DNA of 64,000 nt from an uncultured Bryobacterales bacterium (GTDB lineage Bacteria > Acidobacteriota > Terriglobia > Bryobacterales > UBA6623), in NCBI GenBank assembly GCA_958295955.1, contig OY282420.1:150236-214235 (forward strand), written 5' to 3'. The notes beneath the pieces are model-generated. The model did no database searches, was not told the origin of the DNA, and was given only the letters and a program-made list of their open reading frames with translations. This document shows positions 38,326-41,757 of the stretch, one piece after another. A program made the position numbers and the translations under genes. How positions within the stretch are numbered: the stretch's first letter is position 1; each line of letters starts with the position of its first letter.

Positions 38326-39177
38326 ATGAGACTCGTCACCTACTCGCATCGAGAGCGTTCGGCGGCCCTGGGCATGGTCGTCGACGGCCGCGTGATCGAC
38401 CTCGCGGACATCGGCTACAACGATATTCTCCGCTTCCTGGAGGAAGGCGGCAAGGCCGTGCGGCGCGCCGAGCGGTTCGCGAAGATCGCCGAGGAAGGAC
38501 CTCGCTTCGAGGATGTCAAGCTGCATGCGCCCGTGCCGCGGCCCGGCAAGTTTATCTGCATCGGGTTGAATTACAAAGACCACGCGGTCGAATCCGGTAT
38601 GGAAATCCCGGAGTTGCCGACCGTTTTCACGAAGTATTCGAACGCGGTGTGCGGCCACGGCGATCCGATCGTCCTTCCCGCTGTCTCGAAAAAGGTCGAT
38701 TACGAGGCGGAGTTGGCGTTCGTGATCGGCCGCCGGGCGAAGAACGTCAAAGCCGCCGACTGGGGAGATTACGTTTTCGGCTATGCCTGCGTCCACGACG
38801 TCAGCGCGCGGGACTATCAACTGGCGACTTCGCAGTGGACCATCGGCAAGACGTTCGATACGTTCGGGCCGATGGGGCCGGCGCTGGTGAGCAAAGACGA
38901 GGTAGCCGATCCGCACAATCTGCGGATCGGCTTCGACCTCAACGGAGAAACGCTGCAAGACTCGAACACCAAGCAGTTCGTCTTCGATATCCCTTATCTC
39001 GTCGCGTACCTTTCGACGGTAATGACTCTCGAACCGGGCGACGTGATCTCGACCGGCACGCCTCCGGGAGTCGGTTTTGCCCGCAAGCCGCCGGTGTTCC
39101 TCAAGCCGGGCGACGAGTGCGTCGTTTGGATCGAGGGCATCGGCGCATTAAGCAATCCCTGTATCGGCGATGACTGA
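38326..39177 (+). CDS. fumarylacetoacetate hydrolase (FAH) family protein
   Basis: 283 aa. PGKFICIGLNYKDHA, VDYEAELAFVIG and FDIPYLVAYLSTVMTLEPGDVISTGTPPGVG motifs. Confidence 0.9.
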   Translation: MRLVTYSHRERSAALGMVVDGRVIDLADIGYNDILRFLEEGGKAVRRAERFAKIAEEGPRFEDVKLHAPVPRPGKFICIGLNYKDHAVESGMEIPELPTVFTKYSNAVCGHGDPIVLPAVSKKVDYEAELAFVIGRRAKNVKAADWGDYVFGYACVHDVSARDYQLATSQWTIGKTFDTFGPMGPALVSKDEVADPHNLRIGFDLNGETLQDSNTKQFVFDIPYLVAYLSTVMTLEPGDVISTGTPPGVGFARKPPVFLKPGDECVVWIEGIGALSNPCIGDD

Positions 39178-39328
39178 CAACCGCATCCAATACGTCAAAT
39201 CGGGCATCACGTTCGGAACCGCCCTGGCGATCGCGATCTCCTGGTCGCAAAACCACTCGATCGTCTGGGCCATCATTCACGGCCTGCTCGGTTGGGCGTA
39301 CGTGATCTACTACGCGCTGTTCTACTGA
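39170..39328 (+). CDS. 52-aa two-helix small membrane protein (hypothetical)
   Basis: Hand translation gives MTDNRIQYVKSGITFGTALAIAISWSQNHSIVWAIIHGLLGWAYVIYYALFY. Its ATG overlaps the FAH stop (ATGACTGA). It is below the ORF-track length cut-off. Confidence 0.45.
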   Translation: MTDNRIQYVKSGITFGTALAIAISWSQNHSIVWAIIHGLLGWAYVIYYALFY

Positions 39329-39424
39329 GCCGCAGGGGGAGCGAAGGAGCGATTCGCCTGGCCTGGAATCAAGAAGCGTCCGAGATCGCTTGACGCAAAT
39401 TTCGGGAGAAAAGCGGACTTGAAA

Positions 39425-40207
39425 ATGCCTATTACGGTTGACCTCTCCGCTTCGCTCGAATACCGGAAGCGTCTTAAGGATTACTGTTCAGCCAATGTTC
39501 TTACACCGGATCTTAAGTTCGTCTGCAAGTACGAAAAGAAGTGCCGTTTTTCGGCGGAAGAACTTGATAATAGTTTCGCCCCCGGCCAACTCAGCTATGT
39601 CGGCGACGGATACGCGGCCGAGGAGAACGGCATCCCGATGCGCATCCTCATCGTCTCCTTACAAGTAGGTACGAACGAGGTTATCTCGATGGAGCGACGC
39701 CGCGAGCAGATACTCGGCCGCATGTCTGGGAAAAGGAATCCCCACATGCGTGGAGTTACGCGCACTCTGCAAGCCCTGTGGAATATCCGGGATAGCAAAG
39801 TTGAGCGTATCGATGACGATCAGCACGTTCTTGAAGCTTACGCGATGGCCAACTCGACTCTGTGCTCGAATCTACCGACCGATGGAAAGTCGCGCAAAGG
39901 CGAACCGACGGATTGCATGTGGCTCAAATGCAGTTCCCATCTCCGTCGAACGGTCGAATTACTGGAGCCGACGATCATCGTAACTCAAGGCCAAAAAGCT
40001 CCCAAGGAATCGATCGAGAAGATTACCGACAAACGAACGCAGATCGCTGGCAGTATCGAGCGTGTCACGGTCGGCAGAGTGGAAGCGATCTGGAGCCGGT
40101 TCGATCATCCGTCGGCTTGGAGATTCAAAAGGAATTACCTTTCAGATGTCGTAGAGCCCACACTGCAGAAGGTCCGCGAACTCGCCCTCTCAGGTGGTTG
40201 CAAATAA
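39425..40207 (+). CDS. divergent uracil-DNA-glycosylase-superfamily protein (family 4/5-like Fe-S type, non-canonical motif A)
   Basis: 260 aa from ATG 39425. SYVGDGY...MRILIVSLQVG sits where UDG motif A (GEAPG) lies. AMANSTLCSNLP-X-DCMWLKCSSHL...PTIIVTQGQKA has C-X16-C spacing like the Fe-S ligands of family 4/5 UDGs. FDHPSAW sits where motif B (HPS) lies. The gene is low-GC with A/T-ending codons. Confidence 0.65.
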   Translation: MPITVDLSASLEYRKRLKDYCSANVLTPDLKFVCKYEKKCRFSAEELDNSFAPGQLSYVGDGYAAEENGIPMRILIVSLQVGTNEVISMERRREQILGRMSGKRNPHMRGVTRTLQALWNIRDSKVERIDDDQHVLEAYAMANSTLCSNLPTDGKSRKGEPTDCMWLKCSSHLRRTVELLEPTIIVTQGQKAPKESIEKITDKRTQIAGSIERVTVGRVEAIWSRFDHPSAWRFKRNYLSDVVEPTLQKVRELALSGGCK

Positions 40208-40559
40208 GAGTTGCAAGTCTCTTTCGAGTGTGAGCCACCGGATGATTCCCGACGTTGCGATCTTGCTATGGGAAGGCGAACGTTTGGCGTCCGTGCTCGT
40301 GTTCGATCCGAAATACAAGCGCGACGGGCAGAAACCGGTCATGGGAGACATTGACAAGATGCATACGTACAGGGACGGCATTCGCGACTCGGATGGAAAG
40401 CGGGTCGTGACATACGCCGCAATCGTCTATCCGGGCGAGAGCGTAGATTATGCCGGCCAAGTGGGAGCGGTTTCCGCCGTACCGGGCCACGCATCGCCCT
40501 CGAATGCCGTTCGCGGCAAGGTCGCGGCTGCGCTTTCGCAGGCGGCTTCGCAGCGGTAG
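40194..40559 (+). CDS. minimal PD-(D/E)xK nuclease ORF, McrC / DUF524-type core (possibly a gene remnant)
   Basis: RMIPDVAILLWEGERLASVLVFDPKYKRDGQKPVMGDIDKMHTYRDGIRDSDGKRVVTYAAIVYPG shows the PD...D-x-K-Y-K...KMHxYRD pattern. The frame is closed upstream by TAG at 40152-40154. Possible starts are GTG 40194 or ATG 40242. It overlaps the UDG-like ORF by 14 nt. Confidence 0.5.
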   Translation: MVANKSCKSLSSVSHRMIPDVAILLWEGERLASVLVFDPKYKRDGQKPVMGDIDKMHTYRDGIRDSDGKRVVTYAAIVYPGESVDYAGQVGAVSAVPGHASPSNAVRGKVAAALSQAASQR

Positions 40560-40583
40560 AATTGACTGCAACCCAAGTAGGCC

Positions 40584-41171
40584 GTGTACCGCTGGATCAA
40601 AAAATTGCACATTTACGCCGGTCTGCTGAGCTTCAGCGGCTTCACGGTCTGGGGCATCGTCGGGATTTGGGCGACCTTTCTGCCGGCTCCCGCCGAGCGG
40701 ATCCGACCGGATCCGCAAATCCGCACGGTCGCCTTCAGCGTGGACGGTTCCGCCACGGACCAACAAATCACCGACGCGATGATCGCCGCGTCCGGCTTGC
40801 CCTTCATCCAACCCGGACGCAAGCCGAACCGCGACCCGCAGGGCCGCCTGCAGGTGCGCTATCTGACGCCCAACGGCACGCGCCGCATCCTGCTGCTCGA
40901 GAAGGAAAACAAAATCCGCATCGAACAGGTTGCGAGCCCGTTTGCGGGATTTTTGAACATCATGCACTTCCAGACGTTCAACCATCACAACCCCGGATGG
41001 GAAGTACGGATGTGGGGCGCTTACAACGAATTCTCGATGTGGGCGGTCATTTTCATGACGTTATCCGGTTTTTATCTGTGGCTGGCGACGCGGCCGCGCA
41101 TGCAATGGGCGTTGTGGACGCTCGGCCTCTCGACTCTTGCCTTCGCCGCCCTCTACGTGAGCTTGAGGTGA
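40584..41171 (+). CDS. PepSY-associated-TM-like membrane protein, paralogue 1
   Basis: 195 aa with a GTG start. MYRWIKKLHIYAGLL (TM1) is followed by a ~90-aa extracytoplasmic segment, then IMHFQ and two C-terminal TM helices with GFYLW. Confidence 0.7.
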   Translation: MYRWIKKLHIYAGLLSFSGFTVWGIVGIWATFLPAPAERIRPDPQIRTVAFSVDGSATDQQITDAMIAASGLPFIQPGRKPNRDPQGRLQVRYLTPNGTRRILLLEKENKIRIEQVASPFAGFLNIMHFQTFNHHNPGWEVRMWGAYNEFSMWAVIFMTLSGFYLWLATRPRMQWALWTLGLSTLAFAALYVSLR

Positions 41172-41175
41172 CGCC

Positions 41176-41757
41176 GTGTATCGCCTGATGCGCAACATTC
41201 ACTTGATTCTCGGGCTGGTCTTCGCGCTCGCTTTGGGCGTCTATCTGTTGAGCTCGGTGCGTCTTGCGCACCGCTCGTGGTTCTCCGCCGCCCCTACGGT
41301 CACCGAACATACGTATCCGGTCGACCCCGAGCGCGCCGCGACCCCGCGGGCCCTGGGGCAGTACTTGATCGAAGAGCACGGGATACGGGGCGAAATTGCC
41401 CGCGTGCAGCCTGCGCAAGACGGAAAGTTCAGCCTGCTGATTCGGCGCCTCGGAACCGGATACCAAGTGCGTTACGACGAAGGAGCTGCGCAGGCCCTCG
41501 TCCGGGAGAGCAAGCAAGCCTTCACCGGCATGTTGCTGAGCATGCACTTCGCGCACGGCTTTTGGCATGAGAACGCGACGATCAACGTGTGGGGCGCCGT
41601 GTTGTTGCTGACTTCGATCGGACTGTTCGCAATAGGCGTCACGGGCATCTATCTGTGGTTCAAGACCTACGACGAGCGCCTGATCGGATCCGTCTTGCTG
41701 GGCGCGGGTCTCGTCTTCGCCTTCGTGTCCCTGTACCTGGTCCGCAGCCAAGGGTAG
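41176..41757 (+). CDS. PepSY-associated-TM-like membrane protein, paralogue 2
   Basis: 193 aa with a GTG start. Same layout as paralogue 1 (MYRLMRNIHLILGLV, SMHFAHG, GIYLW). It lies 4 nt after paralogue 1. Confidence 0.7.
   Translation: MYRLMRNIHLILGLVFALALGVYLLSSVRLAHRSWFSAAPTVTEHTYPVDPERAATPRALGQYLIEEHGIRGEIARVQPAQDGKFSLLIRRLGTGYQVRYDEGAAQALVRESKQAFTGMLLSMHFAHGFWHENATINVWGAVLLLTSIGLFAIGVTGIYLWFKTYDERLIGSVLLGAGLVFAFVSLYLVRSQG

What the first reader, a model, noticed from the sequence alone, without database searches (positions are those of the whole stretch)
39329..40583. Low-GC two-gene islet: candidate glycosylase-plus-nuclease DNA-targeting (defence-like) module
A ~1.2-kb segment stands out compositionally between host-like genes (FAH and the small TM ORF upstream, the PepSY-TM pair downstream, all on the plus strand). 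The first 120 nt of its main ORF are 56/120 G+C by hand count. A 60-nt sample of the FAH gene (38401-38460) is 37/60 G+C. The islet ORF also uses many A/T-ending codons.

The segment holds only two ORFs: a divergent UDG-superfamily protein and a minimal PD-(D/E)xK nuclease. They overlap by 14 nt, which suggests co-translation. There is no methyltransferase, integrase or repeat boundary.

DNA glycosylases acting as anti-phage effectors are established (Brig1 excises glucosyl-hmC). A glycosylase that creates abasic sites in modified foreign DNA, coupled to a nuclease that cuts them, is mechanistically plausible. I do not know this pairing as a named system.

The alternative is a decaying remnant of a larger restriction locus. 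The nuclease ORF looks like only the C-terminal module of McrC/DUF524-type proteins.
Basis: inference. Interest (0 to 1): 0.8.

Follow-up and report, generated by a model that had tools for sequence, protein, structure and literature searches.

The report
Glycosylase gene inside a dead restriction operon
The "two-gene glycosylase plus nuclease module" is an intact, uncharacterised uracil-DNA-glycosylase-fold gene that has replaced the inside of a dead McrBC-type restriction operon. The "nuclease" is only that operon's leftover tail, while the glycosylase belongs to a family that often sits next to anti-phage genes elsewhere.

Summary
The sequence observation holds. Two plus-strand ORFs (39419/39425-40207 and 40194-40559) overlap by 14 nt, and the segment is among the lowest-GC 1% of the window.

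The proposed glycosylase-plus-nuclease module does not hold. A 72%-identical relative (L008) carries an intact McrBC-like pair: an AAA_5 GTPase-like gene and a 465-aa DUF2357+PDDEXK_7 McrC-like gene. The window's 121-aa ORF is the last ~113 codons of that mcrC-like gene. Its GTG start and the 14-nt overlap were created by a deletion junction. About 77 nt upstream of the glycosylase gene (39329-39405) is the decayed 5' end of the mcrB-like gene.

An 815-nt cassette (39406-40220) replaced roughly 3.4 kb of the operon. A ~99%-identical strain (L007) lacks the cassette. 70%-identical relatives (L005/L006) have the glycosylase gene without the nuclease tail. None of 27 genome loci carrying a homologue has a McrBC or PD-(D/E)xK neighbour.

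The 260-aa protein is a confident UDG-fold protein closest to family 4/UdgX. It has four invariant cysteines and is under purifying selection (dN/dS 0.36-0.49). Its family (at least 693 clusters) is distinct from Brig1, but members lie beside Brig1 homologues, GmrSD-like enzymes and PglW. A stand-alone defence glycosylase is plausible but unproven.

The parts
39329..39405 (+). Decayed 5' end of a mcrB-like GTPase gene (about the first 20 codons plus the upstream region), with an in-frame stop. It probably still provides the promoter and leader for the UDG-like gene (inference).
   Evidence: The stretch is homologous to L007 up to 5744. Translated in frame 3 it reads AWNQEASEIA*RKFR, against L007 MNWNQTAFESGCRKFR. 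The longer L007 fragment matches residues ~29-64 of full-length 761-aa McrB-like ORFs in L050 and L049, about 1350 nt upstream of their AAA domains.
39406..40220 (+). 815-nt replacement cassette that carries the UDG-like gene. It stands in place of the 442 nt of McrBC remnants seen in the ~99%-identical strain L007.
   Evidence: Against L007, homology stops at window 39405 and resumes at 40221. L001, L005 and L006 share the same 5' junction. GC is 52.9%.
39425..40207 (+). Intact gene for a 260-aa UDG-superfamily protein. It is family-4/UdgX-like, has four invariant Cys (putative 4Fe-4S ligands), and carries N143 and an H228-P229-S motif B. An alternative TTG start lies at 39419.
   Evidence: AlphaFold2 gives mean pLDDT 93.2 and pTM 0.92. 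The best Foldseek match is 4zbx, a family-4 UDG, at E 9.7e-8, followed by UdgX, TDG and SMUG1. A profile search of PDB sequences hits 4zbx at E 2.3e-4. Invariant residues come from the 38-sequence alignment. dN/dS is 0.36-0.49 against L005/L006.
40208..40234 (+). Deletion junction between the 3' flank of the UDG cassette and the interior of the mcrC-like gene. It contains a short patch of shared similarity (CTTTC-AG-G), consistent with microhomology-mediated joining (inference).
   Evidence: Homology to the UDG flank of L005/L006 runs to 40228/40234, while homology to mcrC of L007/L008 starts at 40221/40215.
40221..40559 (+). 3' remnant (the last ~113 codons) of a McrC-like DUF2357+PD-(D/E)xK gene. 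It keeps the PD...DxK strands (IPD, FDPKYK) but lacks the DUF2357 domain and the first ~73 positions of the nuclease profile. It is most likely a non-functional pseudogene fragment.
   Evidence: Pfam PDDEXK_7 matches profile positions 74-162 of 164 only. The stretch aligns to the C-terminus of the 465-aa L008 ORF 826-2223, which has DUF2357 plus full-length PDDEXK_7. Only two homologous clusters exist in 5.8 billion proteins, and both come from this same locus.
40194..40559 (+). Its first 9 codons (40194-40220) are read from the end of the UDG gene and its 3' flank, not from mcrC.
   Evidence: See the junction sequences. L001's gene call starts at the internal ATG and gives 105 aa.

Best explanation
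The segment is a scar of defence-gene turnover, not a two-gene system.

**Shown: what the locus used to hold.** The site between the conserved 52-aa membrane-protein gene and the PSCyt/PSD1 gene once held a McrBC-type (type IV, modification-dependent) restriction operon. That operon had a ~760-aa McrB-like AAA_5 GTPase gene followed by a ~465-515-aa McrC-like gene (DUF2357 plus a PD-(D/E)xK nuclease domain).

**Shown: what is there now.** In the window's lineage, an 815-nt cassette encoding one intact UDG-fold protein stands where about 3.4 kb of the operon's interior used to be. About 77 nt of the mcrB 5' end is left on one side and the last ~113 codons of mcrC on the other.

**Shown: why a 121-aa ORF exists.** The mcrC tail stays open by chance. 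It is extended upstream across the junction to a GTG inside the UDG gene, which creates the 14-nt overlap.

**Inferred from established McrBC biology.** The tail has no McrB motor, no DUF2357 McrB-binding domain and no N-terminal half of its own nuclease fold. It is therefore a dead remnant.

**Shown: the live gene.** The only functional gene in the segment is the UDG-like one. It is a divergent family-4/UdgX-like fold with four invariant cysteines placed like the 4Fe-4S ligands of family 4. It has a conserved Asn (N143) and a His-Pro-Ser motif B, but an atypical motif A: SLQVG/MQVG instead of GE(A/G)PG.

**Inferred: how it works.** It acts alone as a DNA glycosylase and is probably transcribed from the old mcrB promoter. 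Its most likely role is excision of a non-canonical, phage-type base, giving abasic sites that block phage replication as Brig1, Brig2 and Brig3 do. I put this at about 50%. Ordinary back-up repair of deaminated bases is the main alternative.

**Shown and inferred: allele exchange.** The alleles at this locus are exchanged between strains, probably by homologous recombination through the conserved flanks.
For: **The nuclease ORF is a remnant.**
- L008 has an intact AAA_5 gene (PADLOC PDC-M26A, E 6.8e-49) followed by a 465-aa DUF2357 + PDDEXK_7 gene. The PDDEXK_7 match covers profile positions 2-162.
- The window ORF matches only the C-terminal end of that gene.
- PF04411, PF09823 and AAA_5 are the models used to define McrC and McrB in the McrBC census (PMC11090510).
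- The junctions are mapped to single-base resolution at 39405/39406 and about 40220/40221.

**The upstream stretch is a mcrB 5' remnant.**

**The pair is not conserved.**
- L007 is ~99% identical over 12 kb but lacks the UDG gene. It carries further McrB pieces instead, and its 174-aa ORF is a McrB/McrC chimera.
- L005/L006 have the UDG gene followed by a pentapeptide-repeat gene and no nuclease.
- 0 of 27 genome loci with the UDG-like gene have a McrB/McrC homologue.
- 0 of 80 McrB-like metagenome loci have a UDG-like gene.
- No neighbour is conserved across lineages.

**The UDG-like gene is functional.**
- dS against L005/L006 is 0.38-0.55, similar to the flanking genes (0.47-0.53).
- dN/dS is 0.36-0.49.
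- The fold is confident and has UDG-superfamily matches.

**Defence association of the family.**
- Brig1 homologues (41-42% identity, E 1e-48 to 1e-51) lie immediately upstream in L022, L026 and L027. In L022 a PglW gene lies next to this pair.
- A GmrSD-like gene lies immediately upstream in L018. GmrSD_N proteins lie within 6 kb in L020, L024 and L025.
- Other neighbour hits include mad1, mad3, PDC-M37B, mREase_IV and type I MTase.
- Members are fused to DUF4268, DUF4357+Ank or a UvrD helicase. DUF4268 and DUF4357 are accessory domains found in GmrSD-family proteins (PMC4619093), and DUF4357 is also listed among domains commonly fused to McrB homologues (PMC11090510).
- The gene shows presence/absence polymorphism among ~99% identical strains from one sample, low GC3, paralogues and frameshifted copies.
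- Copies occur on Rhodococcus megaplasmids beside a restriction endonuclease, recombinases and IS elements.
Against: **No experiment.** Neither glycosylase activity nor the Fe-S cluster has been shown. Motif A lacks the acidic residue of family 4/UdgX, with M or L at the position of UdgX E52 (alignment). The protein could therefore have an unusual activity or none.

**The defence association is uncontrolled.**
- It was not tested against a control gene set.
- The closest relatives (Bryobacterales-type loci L002, L004, L036-L038) have neighbours with no PADLOC hit. The one exception is a partial PD-T4-6 match (E 5.1e-18) to a 1099-aa NHL-repeat protein.
- PADLOC has no model for the protein itself.

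**The gene is old at this locus.** It has persisted over dS of about 0.5, which also fits a useful accessory repair enzyme.

**The remnant may still be expressed.** The scan found no terminator between the UDG gene and the mcrC tail. A 105-121-aa product could be made, and its inactivity is inferred, not measured.

**The order of events is inferred.** Whether the UDG gene inserted first and the deletion followed, or one replacement event did both, cannot be told. L008's contig starts inside mcrB, so what lies upstream of an intact operon is not seen.
Confidence: 0.85

Rival explanations
1. The UDG-like protein and the 121-aa PD-(D/E)xK protein form a co-translated two-gene defence module. The glycosylase makes abasic sites in modified foreign DNA and the nuclease cuts there.
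For: The two ORFs lie on the same strand and overlap by 14 nt, and no terminator was found between them. The remnant keeps the PD and DxK motifs (translations). The pair is retained in L001. One distant family member is fused to DUF4268, and others to DUF4357 or a helicase. So glycosylase-plus-accessory-DNA-domain combinations do occur in this family.
Against: - The pair is seen only in ~99%-identical genomes.
- The overlap and the GTG start are by-products of a deletion junction.
- The nuclease ORF lacks the DUF2357 domain and the first ~73 positions of its own domain profile.
- The UDG gene stands alone in L005/L006, in L002-L004 and in 27 genome loci.
- The nuclease piece occurs without the UDG gene in L007.
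- The few differences between strains in the remnant are mostly non-synonymous: 3.5 non-synonymous against 0.5 synonymous between window and L001. These counts are tiny.
Confidence: 0.03
2. The UDG-like protein is an accessory DNA-repair enzyme, a divergent Fe-S family-4-type glycosylase for uracil, hypoxanthine or other damaged bases. It has nothing to do with phage defence, and its position in the dead McrBC locus is incidental.
For: - The best sequence and structure matches are repair UDGs: family 4, UdgX, TDG and SMUG1.
- It has an HPS motif B, a conserved Asn and a family-4-like Cys pattern.
- It has been kept at this locus over dS of about 0.5 under purifying selection.
- The Bryobacterales-type loci show metabolic or unknown neighbours with almost no PADLOC hits.
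Against: - The gene is absent from a ~99%-identical strain of the same sample.
- Its GC3 is 0.61 against about 0.80 for the host genes.
- Constraint is more relaxed than on the flanking genes: dN/dS 0.36-0.49 against 0.10-0.19.
- There are several paralogues per genome and frameshifted copies.
- The phyletic distribution is patchy.
- Members are directly adjacent to Brig1 homologues and GmrSD-like genes, beside PglW.
- Members are fused to domains typical of type IV restriction enzymes.
- Copies are carried on plasmids.
- Motif A is atypical.
Confidence: 0.3
3. The UDG-fold protein has lost glycosylase activity. It acts as a DNA-binding or modified-base-sensing protein, in the way UdgX binds tightly rather than turning over.
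For: Motif A lacks the Glu/Asp found in families 1 and 4 and in UdgX. UdgX-type structures are among the best fold matches.
Against: N143, H228-P229 and the four Cys are invariant or nearly so across sequences down to 28% identical to the window protein. That argues for a conserved active site. No R-loop/His109-type feature was looked for or seen.
Confidence: 0.1

Closest known systems
McrBC-type type IV restriction systems: a McrB AAA_5 GTPase plus McrC, which is DUF2357 plus a PD-(D/E)xK domain (PF04411). The matching PADLOC candidate is PDC-M26.
   Same: The 3' ORF (40221-40559) is homologous to the C-terminal PD-(D/E)xK part of a McrC-like protein. The 39329-39405 stretch is homologous to the 5' end of the partner mcrB-like gene. 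Relative L008 has the operon with the mcrC-like gene complete and the mcrB-like gene cut only by the contig end.
   Different: In the window only about 77 nt of mcrB and ~113 codons of mcrC survive. There is no GTPase, no DUF2357 domain and no N-terminal half of the nuclease domain. It is a remnant, not a system.
Family 4 uracil-DNA glycosylases and UdgX (Fe-S UDGs; PDB 4zbx, 1ui1, 6ail)
   Same: These are the best fold matches: Foldseek E 9.7e-8 to about 1e-4 at probability 1.0. They are also the best sequence matches. The C-terminal Cys pair (C147, C169) sits in an N-x3-C...C-x2-(H/Y)-L context like the family-4 ligands. The HPS motif B and the Asn before the third Cys are also shared.
   Different: - The protein is 50-70 residues longer.
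- TM-scores are only 0.49 (query-normalised) and 0.63 (target-normalised).
- Motif A is S(M/L)QVG rather than GE(A/G)PG.
- The N-terminal Cys pair is C-x5-C rather than C-x2-C.
- There is an extra invariant RNPHMRG motif.
- Scores are far below the curated cut-offs: TIGR00758 16.9 bits against 125.3, and Pfam UDG 15.3 bits against 24.3.
Brig1 (alpha-glucosyl-hmC DNA glycosylase; PMC11078745), Brig2 (bioRxiv 10.1101/2025.10.29.685425) and Brig3 (bioRxiv 10.64898/2026.02.25.707755)
   Same: These are single-gene UDG-superfamily proteins of about 250-290 aa. Brig1's best structural match is the same S. tokodaii family-4 UDG. Like Brig1, the family is found mostly in Actinomycetota and near BREX/Pgl and restriction genes. 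In Micromonospora, members lie in tandem with true Brig1 homologues. The gene is lower in GC than its surroundings, as reported for Brig2 homologues.
   Different: - There is no detectable sequence relationship to Brig1: hhalign probability 0.1.
- Brig1 has an LNPG-type motif A and no Cys quartet.
- Brig3 uses N50-P51-S52, E55 and D127, and no Fe-S cluster is described for it.
- No activity or phage phenotype is known for the present family.
GmrSD-family type IV restriction enzymes
   Same: They share genomic neighbourhoods. They also share the accessory domains DUF4268 and DUF4357, which occur fused to some UDG-like family members.
   Different: The catalytic domains are unrelated: DUF262/DUF1524 ParB-like and HNH domains against a UDG fold.

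Membership tests
McrC (nuclease subunit of McrBC) | N-terminal DUF2357 domain that binds and activates McrB | tested here: not met
   Pfam finds no DUF2357 in the 121-aa ORF. The domain is present in the 465-aa L008 orthologue at E 2.7e-7. Role of the domain as stated in PMC11090510.
McrC (nuclease subunit of McrBC) | Complete PD-(D/E)xK nuclease domain (PF04411) | tested here: not met
   Only profile positions 74-162 of 164 are matched. L008 matches positions 2-162. The PD and DxK motifs are present, but the N-terminal helix and first strand are missing.
McrC (nuclease subunit of McrBC) | Adjacent McrB-like AAA_5 GTPase gene | tested here: not met
   Only a ~77-nt 5' remnant with an in-frame stop remains at 39329-39405. 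The partner gene is intact apart from the contig end in L008.
UDG superfamily (fold level) | Alpha/beta UDG fold with significant structural similarity to solved UDGs | tested here: met
   The model has pLDDT 93.2. 43 PDB matches have E <= 1e-3; all 50 matches listed are UDG-superfamily enzymes, and the best is 4zbx at E 9.7e-8.
UDG superfamily (Pfam PF03167) | Score above the Pfam gathering threshold | tested here: not met
   15.3 bits against a cut-off of 24.3. A few homologues carry a weak precomputed PF03167 hit.
Family 4 UDG | Motif A GE(A/G)PG | tested here: not met
   The aligned segment is SLQVG in the window and S-M-Q-V-G in the family consensus.
Family 4 UDG | Motif B HPS | tested here: met
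   H228-P229-S230 is present. P229 is invariant and H228 is conserved in at least 90% of sequences. It aligns to motif B of 4zbx and UdgX.
Family 4 UDG | Four Cys ligands of a 4Fe-4S cluster | tested here: inconclusive
   C34, C40, C147 and C169 are invariant. C169 aligns with a Cys of 4zbx in the profile alignment; that this Cys is a cluster ligand is my recollection, not a tool result. The N-terminal spacing differs (C-x5-C). Cluster binding cannot be tested with these tools.
Family 4 UDG | Curated family model (TIGR00758 / NF040953) | tested here: not met
   16.9 bits against a cut-off of 125.3, and 18.4 bits against 250.
Brig1 family | Sequence homology to Brig1 | tested here: not met
   hhalign of the family profile against Brig1 gives probability 0.1 and E 0.49. 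True Brig1 homologues in L022, L026 and L027 are separate, adjacent genes.
Brig3 family | Homology to Brig3, including the N50-P51-S52 / E55 / D127 / N225 active-site set | not testable with these tools
   The Brig3 sequence is not held. The residues described in the preprint have no obvious counterparts, and no Fe-S cluster is described there. This rests on reading the text only.
Known or candidate defence systems (PADLOC-DB v2.0.0) | Match of either protein to a PADLOC model | tested here: not met
   Neither window protein has a hit at E <= 1. The library predates Brig1, Brig2 and Brig3.

The most novel reading that the evidence does not exclude
The 260-aa protein represents a fourth, sequence-distinct family of UDG-fold anti-phage glycosylases: Fe-S-containing, family-4-derived, with at least 693 clusters at 50% identity (E <= 1e-10). 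It would act alone by excising a modified phage base different from Brig1's substrate. That would explain why it is kept in tandem with Brig1 homologues or GmrSD-like enzymes beside PglW, and why it could functionally replace a McrBC system at this locus.
Probability: 0.4. Interest if true: 0.6.

Novelty: new member of a known kind. Interest (0 to 1): 0.4.

Why it matters
**A cautionary case.** A plausible "glycosylase + nuclease" operon, complete with overlapping ORFs, turns out to be a junction artefact of gene replacement inside a dead restriction operon. Only comparison with close relatives shows this.

**Defence-gene turnover seen at base-pair resolution.** At one chromosomal site in related genomes, a McrBC-type operon has been gutted and its 5' end kept in front of different cassettes: a UDG-fold gene and a pentapeptide-repeat gene. 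Alleles are exchanged between ~99%-identical strains.

**A candidate defence family.** The UDG-fold family is sizeable, uncharacterised and recurrently placed next to Brig1, GmrSD-like and PglW genes. If it is a defence glycosylase, it would extend the recently discovered Brig class to an Fe-S, family-4-derived lineage. It would also point to further modified bases used by soil phages. As it stands, the window itself holds one orphan gene of unknown substrate and two pseudogene fragments.

Tried and rejected
**Conserved pairing.** Rejected. See the pair analysis.

**Known defence system.** PADLOC has no hit for either window protein.

**Brig1 family membership.**
- I suspected this because the length, the Actinomycetota bias and the best structural hit (S. 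tokodaii UDG) all match Brig1.
- I took the Brig1 sequence from the paper's supplement and compared it.
- There is no relationship: hhalign probability 0.1.
- The search instead revealed true Brig1 homologues as neighbours of family members.

**Brig3 and Brig2 membership.** Only textual residue comparison was possible.

**Mobile-element boundaries in the window.** I found no repeats in the window. Direct repeats exist only in L005/L006. There they reflect a tandem join of two alleles: DR1 is the 3' end of the 52-aa gene plus the mcrB 5' remnant, and DR2 is the 3' end of the PSD1 gene.

**Phage origin.**
- No relative was found in IMG/VR by pattern scan.
- No relative was found in 50,697 phage records.

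**Identity of the L007 N-terminal fragment.**
- A word-index protein search found nothing and PADLOC found nothing.
- tblastn against full-length McrB-like loci resolved it.

**Promoter and terminator scan of 39100-40700.** Nothing exceeded the shuffled expectation.

**Extra domains of 10 further long family members.** No Pfam domain was found in nine, and only a sub-threshold UDG match in the tenth.

**Selection on the mcrC remnant.** There are too few substitutions among close strains to be informative.
Full report
**1. The observation**

The two ORFs exist as described. One runs 39419 (TTG) or 39425 (ATG) to 40207 on the plus strand. The other runs 40194 (GTG) to 40559 on the plus strand, and they overlap by 14 nt.

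- The segment is 55.5% GC against a window mean of 64.0%. Only 11 of 1255 sliding windows of that length are as low, and all of them overlap this spot.
- GC3 is 0.61 for the first gene and 0.71 for the second. The surrounding genes are 0.79-0.85.
- Pfam gives a sub-threshold UDG hit for the first protein (E 0.022).
- Pfam gives a clear PDDEXK_7 (PF04411) hit for the second (E 1.6e-10), but only to profile positions 74-162 of 164.
- NCBIfam gives weak family-4 UDG hits. PADLOC gives nothing.

**2. The "nuclease" is the tail of a dead mcrC-like gene**

In 5.8 billion proteins, the 121-aa ORF has only two homologous clusters. Both come from the same chromosomal site in relatives.

In L008 (72% identity), the homologous stretch is the C-terminus of a 465-aa ORF (L008 826-2223). 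That ORF has DUF2357 plus a full-length PDDEXK_7 domain. It is preceded, with overlap, by an AAA_5 gene that matches the PADLOC candidate PDC-M26A at E 6.8e-49.

AAA_5 GTPase plus DUF2357/PF04411 is the definition of a McrBC-type type IV restriction system (PMC11090510). Full-length homologues in metagenomes are 761 aa (McrB-like) and 516 aa (McrC-like), for example L050.

Homology between the window and L007/L008 starts only at window 40221/40215. So the first nine codons of the 121-aa ORF, including its GTG start and the 14-nt overlap, are read from the end of the UDG gene and its 3' flank.

- The junction lies in a short patch that the UDG 3' flank (as seen in L005/L006) and mcrC (as seen in L008) share. 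The shared sequence is CTTTC-AG-G. I read this as microhomology-mediated joining, which is an inference.
- The remnant keeps the PD and DxK strands.
- It lacks the McrB-binding DUF2357 domain, the first ~73 profile positions of its own nuclease domain, and a McrB partner.

Upstream, 39329-39405 is the decayed 5' end of the mcrB-like gene.

- It translates to AWNQEASEIA*RKFR, against MNWNQTAFESGCRKFR in L007.
- The longer L007 fragment matches residues ~29-64 of full-length McrB-like ORFs, about 1350 nt upstream of their AAA domains.

**3. The pair is not conserved, and the locus is a turnover hot spot**

| Locus | Relation to the window | What the site holds |
|---|---|---|
| L001 | ~99% DNA identity | The same pair |
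| L007 | ~99% identical over 12 kb; same metagenome as L001 | No UDG gene; window 39406-40220 (815 nt) is replaced by 442 nt of further McrB fragments |
| L005, L006 | UDG-like protein 70% identical | UDG gene at the same 5' junction, no nuclease |
| L008 | nuclease piece 72% identical | Intact McrBC-like pair |

- The 174-aa "nuclease" of L007 (P0087) is a chimera of a McrB Walker-B piece and the McrC tail.
- Identity between window and L007 drops to 95% and then 72% just upstream of the cassette. That is as expected for an allele swapped in by homologous recombination.
- In L005/L006 the locus is a tandem of two alleles, [DR1-UDG-DR2][DR1-pentapeptide-DR2]. DR1 is the 3' end of the 52-aa gene plus the mcrB 5' remnant. 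DR2 is the 3' end of the PSD1 gene.
- The pentapeptide ORF there even starts with the mcrB N-terminal codons.
- More distant homologues of the UDG-like protein have no McrB/McrC or PD-(D/E)xK neighbour in 27 genome loci or in the metagenome loci examined. No neighbour family is shared across lineages.
- Conversely, 0 of 80 McrB-like loci carry a UDG-like gene.

**4. The UDG-like gene**

It is intact and under purifying selection. Against L005/L006, dS is 0.38-0.55, which equals the flanking genes, and dN/dS is 0.36-0.49. The flanking genes have dN/dS of 0.10-0.19.

AlphaFold2 with a 38-sequence alignment gives pLDDT 93.2. The Foldseek matches listed are all UDG-superfamily enzymes:

- family-4 UDG 4zbx, E 9.7e-8, TM 0.49/0.63;
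- T. thermophilus and T. maritima family 4;
- UdgX, TDG and SMUG1.

The alignment shows invariant C34, C40, C147, C169, N143 and P229, near-invariant H228, and an invariant RNPHMRG motif. C169 aligns with a Cys of 4zbx in the profile alignment; that this residue is an Fe-S ligand is my recollection of family-4 structures, not a tool result. Motif B is HPS. Motif A is S(M/L)QVG rather than GE(A/G)PG.

A full HMM search finds 1230 clusters at 50% identity with E <= 1e-3. Of these, 693 have E <= 1e-10 and 266 have E <= 1e-30.

Hosts include Bryobacterales, Acidimicrobiia, Micromonospora, Mycolicibacillus and Gemmatimonadota, plus Rhodococcus megaplasmids. None was found in phage collections.

**5. 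What it may do**

The family is not Brig1: hhalign gives probability 0.1 against the Brig1 sequence from PMC11078745. By description it is not Brig3 either. Several independent observations nevertheless tie it to defence against modified DNA.

- In Micromonospora L022, L026 and L027, a true Brig1 homologue (41-42% identity, E 1e-48 to 1e-51) lies immediately upstream with a 4-nt overlap. In L022 a PglW gene lies next to the pair.
- In L018, a GmrSD-like gene occupies that upstream place.
- GmrSD_N is the commonest Pfam family among 144 neighbour ORFs from 19 loci. It occurs in four ORFs, one in each of four loci.
- Other neighbours hit mad1, mad3, PDC-M37B, mREase_IV and type I MTase models.
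- Some members are fused to DUF4268, to Ank+DUF4357 or to a UvrD helicase. DUF4268 and DUF4357 are accessory domains found in GmrSD-family proteins (PMC4619093), and DUF4357 is also listed among domains commonly fused to McrB homologues (PMC11090510).
- In the window lineage, the gene sits in a former type IV restriction locus.
- The gene is present or absent among ~99%-identical co-occurring strains, is low in GC3, and has paralogues and frameshifted copies.

Against this:

- The closest (Bryobacterales-type) loci show almost no recognised defence neighbours.
- No control for enrichment was possible.
- No activity is known.

I therefore rate a stand-alone, Brig-like defence glycosylase at about 0.4-0.5. 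An accessory repair glycosylase is at about 0.3.

**6. Verdict**

The sequence observation is real. The two-gene module is not. It is an artefact of an 815-nt UDG-gene cassette replacing about 3.4 kb of a McrBC-type operon, with a 5' stub and a 3' tail left behind.

The remaining point of interest is the orphan Fe-S-type UDG-fold family and its recurrent placement beside Brig1, GmrSD-like and PglW genes. This is a testable candidate for another member of the recently established class of defence glycosylases.

Confidence in the anatomical explanation is high, about 0.85-0.9. Confidence in the function of the UDG-like protein is moderate to low.

Noticed in passing
L022 1546-8897 (also L026, L027); L018 6200-8855: In Micromonospora, a PglW gene (PADLOC E = 0) is followed by a true Brig1 homologue (41-42% identity) and then, with a 4-nt overlap, a member of the Fe-S UDG-like family. 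In L018 a GmrSD-like gene (Orf5/HEC-06 models, DGQQR motif) sits in the place of the Brig1 homologue. Two different UDG-fold genes in tandem suggests complementary substrate ranges.
   Followed up: partly
L005 1-2600; L006 5600-8100: The variable locus is a tandem of two alleles. Two sets of direct repeats flank them: the 3' end of the 52-aa gene plus the mcrB stub, and the 3' end of the PSD1 gene. The order is [UDG-like] then [pentapeptide-repeat gene]. The pentapeptide ORF begins with ~28 codons of the mcrB-like N-terminus, so the old mcrB start is reused by a different cassette.
   Followed up: partly
L007 5634-6525: The ~99%-identical strain without the UDG gene carries three out-of-frame McrB fragments. 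It also has a 174-aa chimeric ORF (P0087) that joins a McrB Walker-B piece to the McrC C-terminus. This is a second, independent decay path of the same operon, and a gene caller annotates it as a PDDEXK_7 protein.
   Followed up: yes
Proteins P0092, P0133, P0185, P0072: The UDG-like domain occurs fused to DUF4268, to ankyrin repeats plus DUF4357, to a UvrD-type helicase, and to an HTH domain. About one in five of the top 150 family representatives carry extra regions of 70 to 780 residues. Ten further long members showed no additional Pfam domain.
   Followed up: partly
L004 8001-13645; L036 10001-14147; L038 6565-8840: In Bryobacterales-type genomes, two paralogues of the UDG-like gene flank a variable insert. 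The insert is nothing, four unknown genes, or a 1099-aa NHL-repeat protein with a partial PD-T4-6 match. The first paralogue always follows a BNR_4 gene with a 4-nt gap.
   Followed up: no
window 40584-41757: The PepSY_TM gene pair downstream of the remnant is present in the window, L001 and L007. It is absent from L005, L006 and L008, where the preceding gene abuts the 3' end of the PSD1 gene directly. The variable region is therefore larger than the low-GC islet, although the PepSY genes have host-like GC3 (0.81).
   Followed up: no
L039, L040, L041 (Rhodococcus plasmids NZ_CP120357.1, NZ_AP025187.1, NZ_CP015203.1): Six large Rhodococcus plasmids carry a family member annotated as a hypothetical protein. 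In the three regions inspected, two have a gene annotated 'restriction endonuclease', a helicase-associated-domain protein and a tyrosine recombinase nearby, one of these also a WGR-domain protein. Two have IS elements nearby and one a DNA-methyltransferase fragment.
   Followed up: partly
window 39170-39328: A 52-aa predicted membrane protein gene overlaps the FAH gene stop by 8 nt and is conserved in all relatives (L005-L007). Its 3' end forms part of the repeat that flanks alternative cassettes. It has no Pfam match.
   Followed up: no
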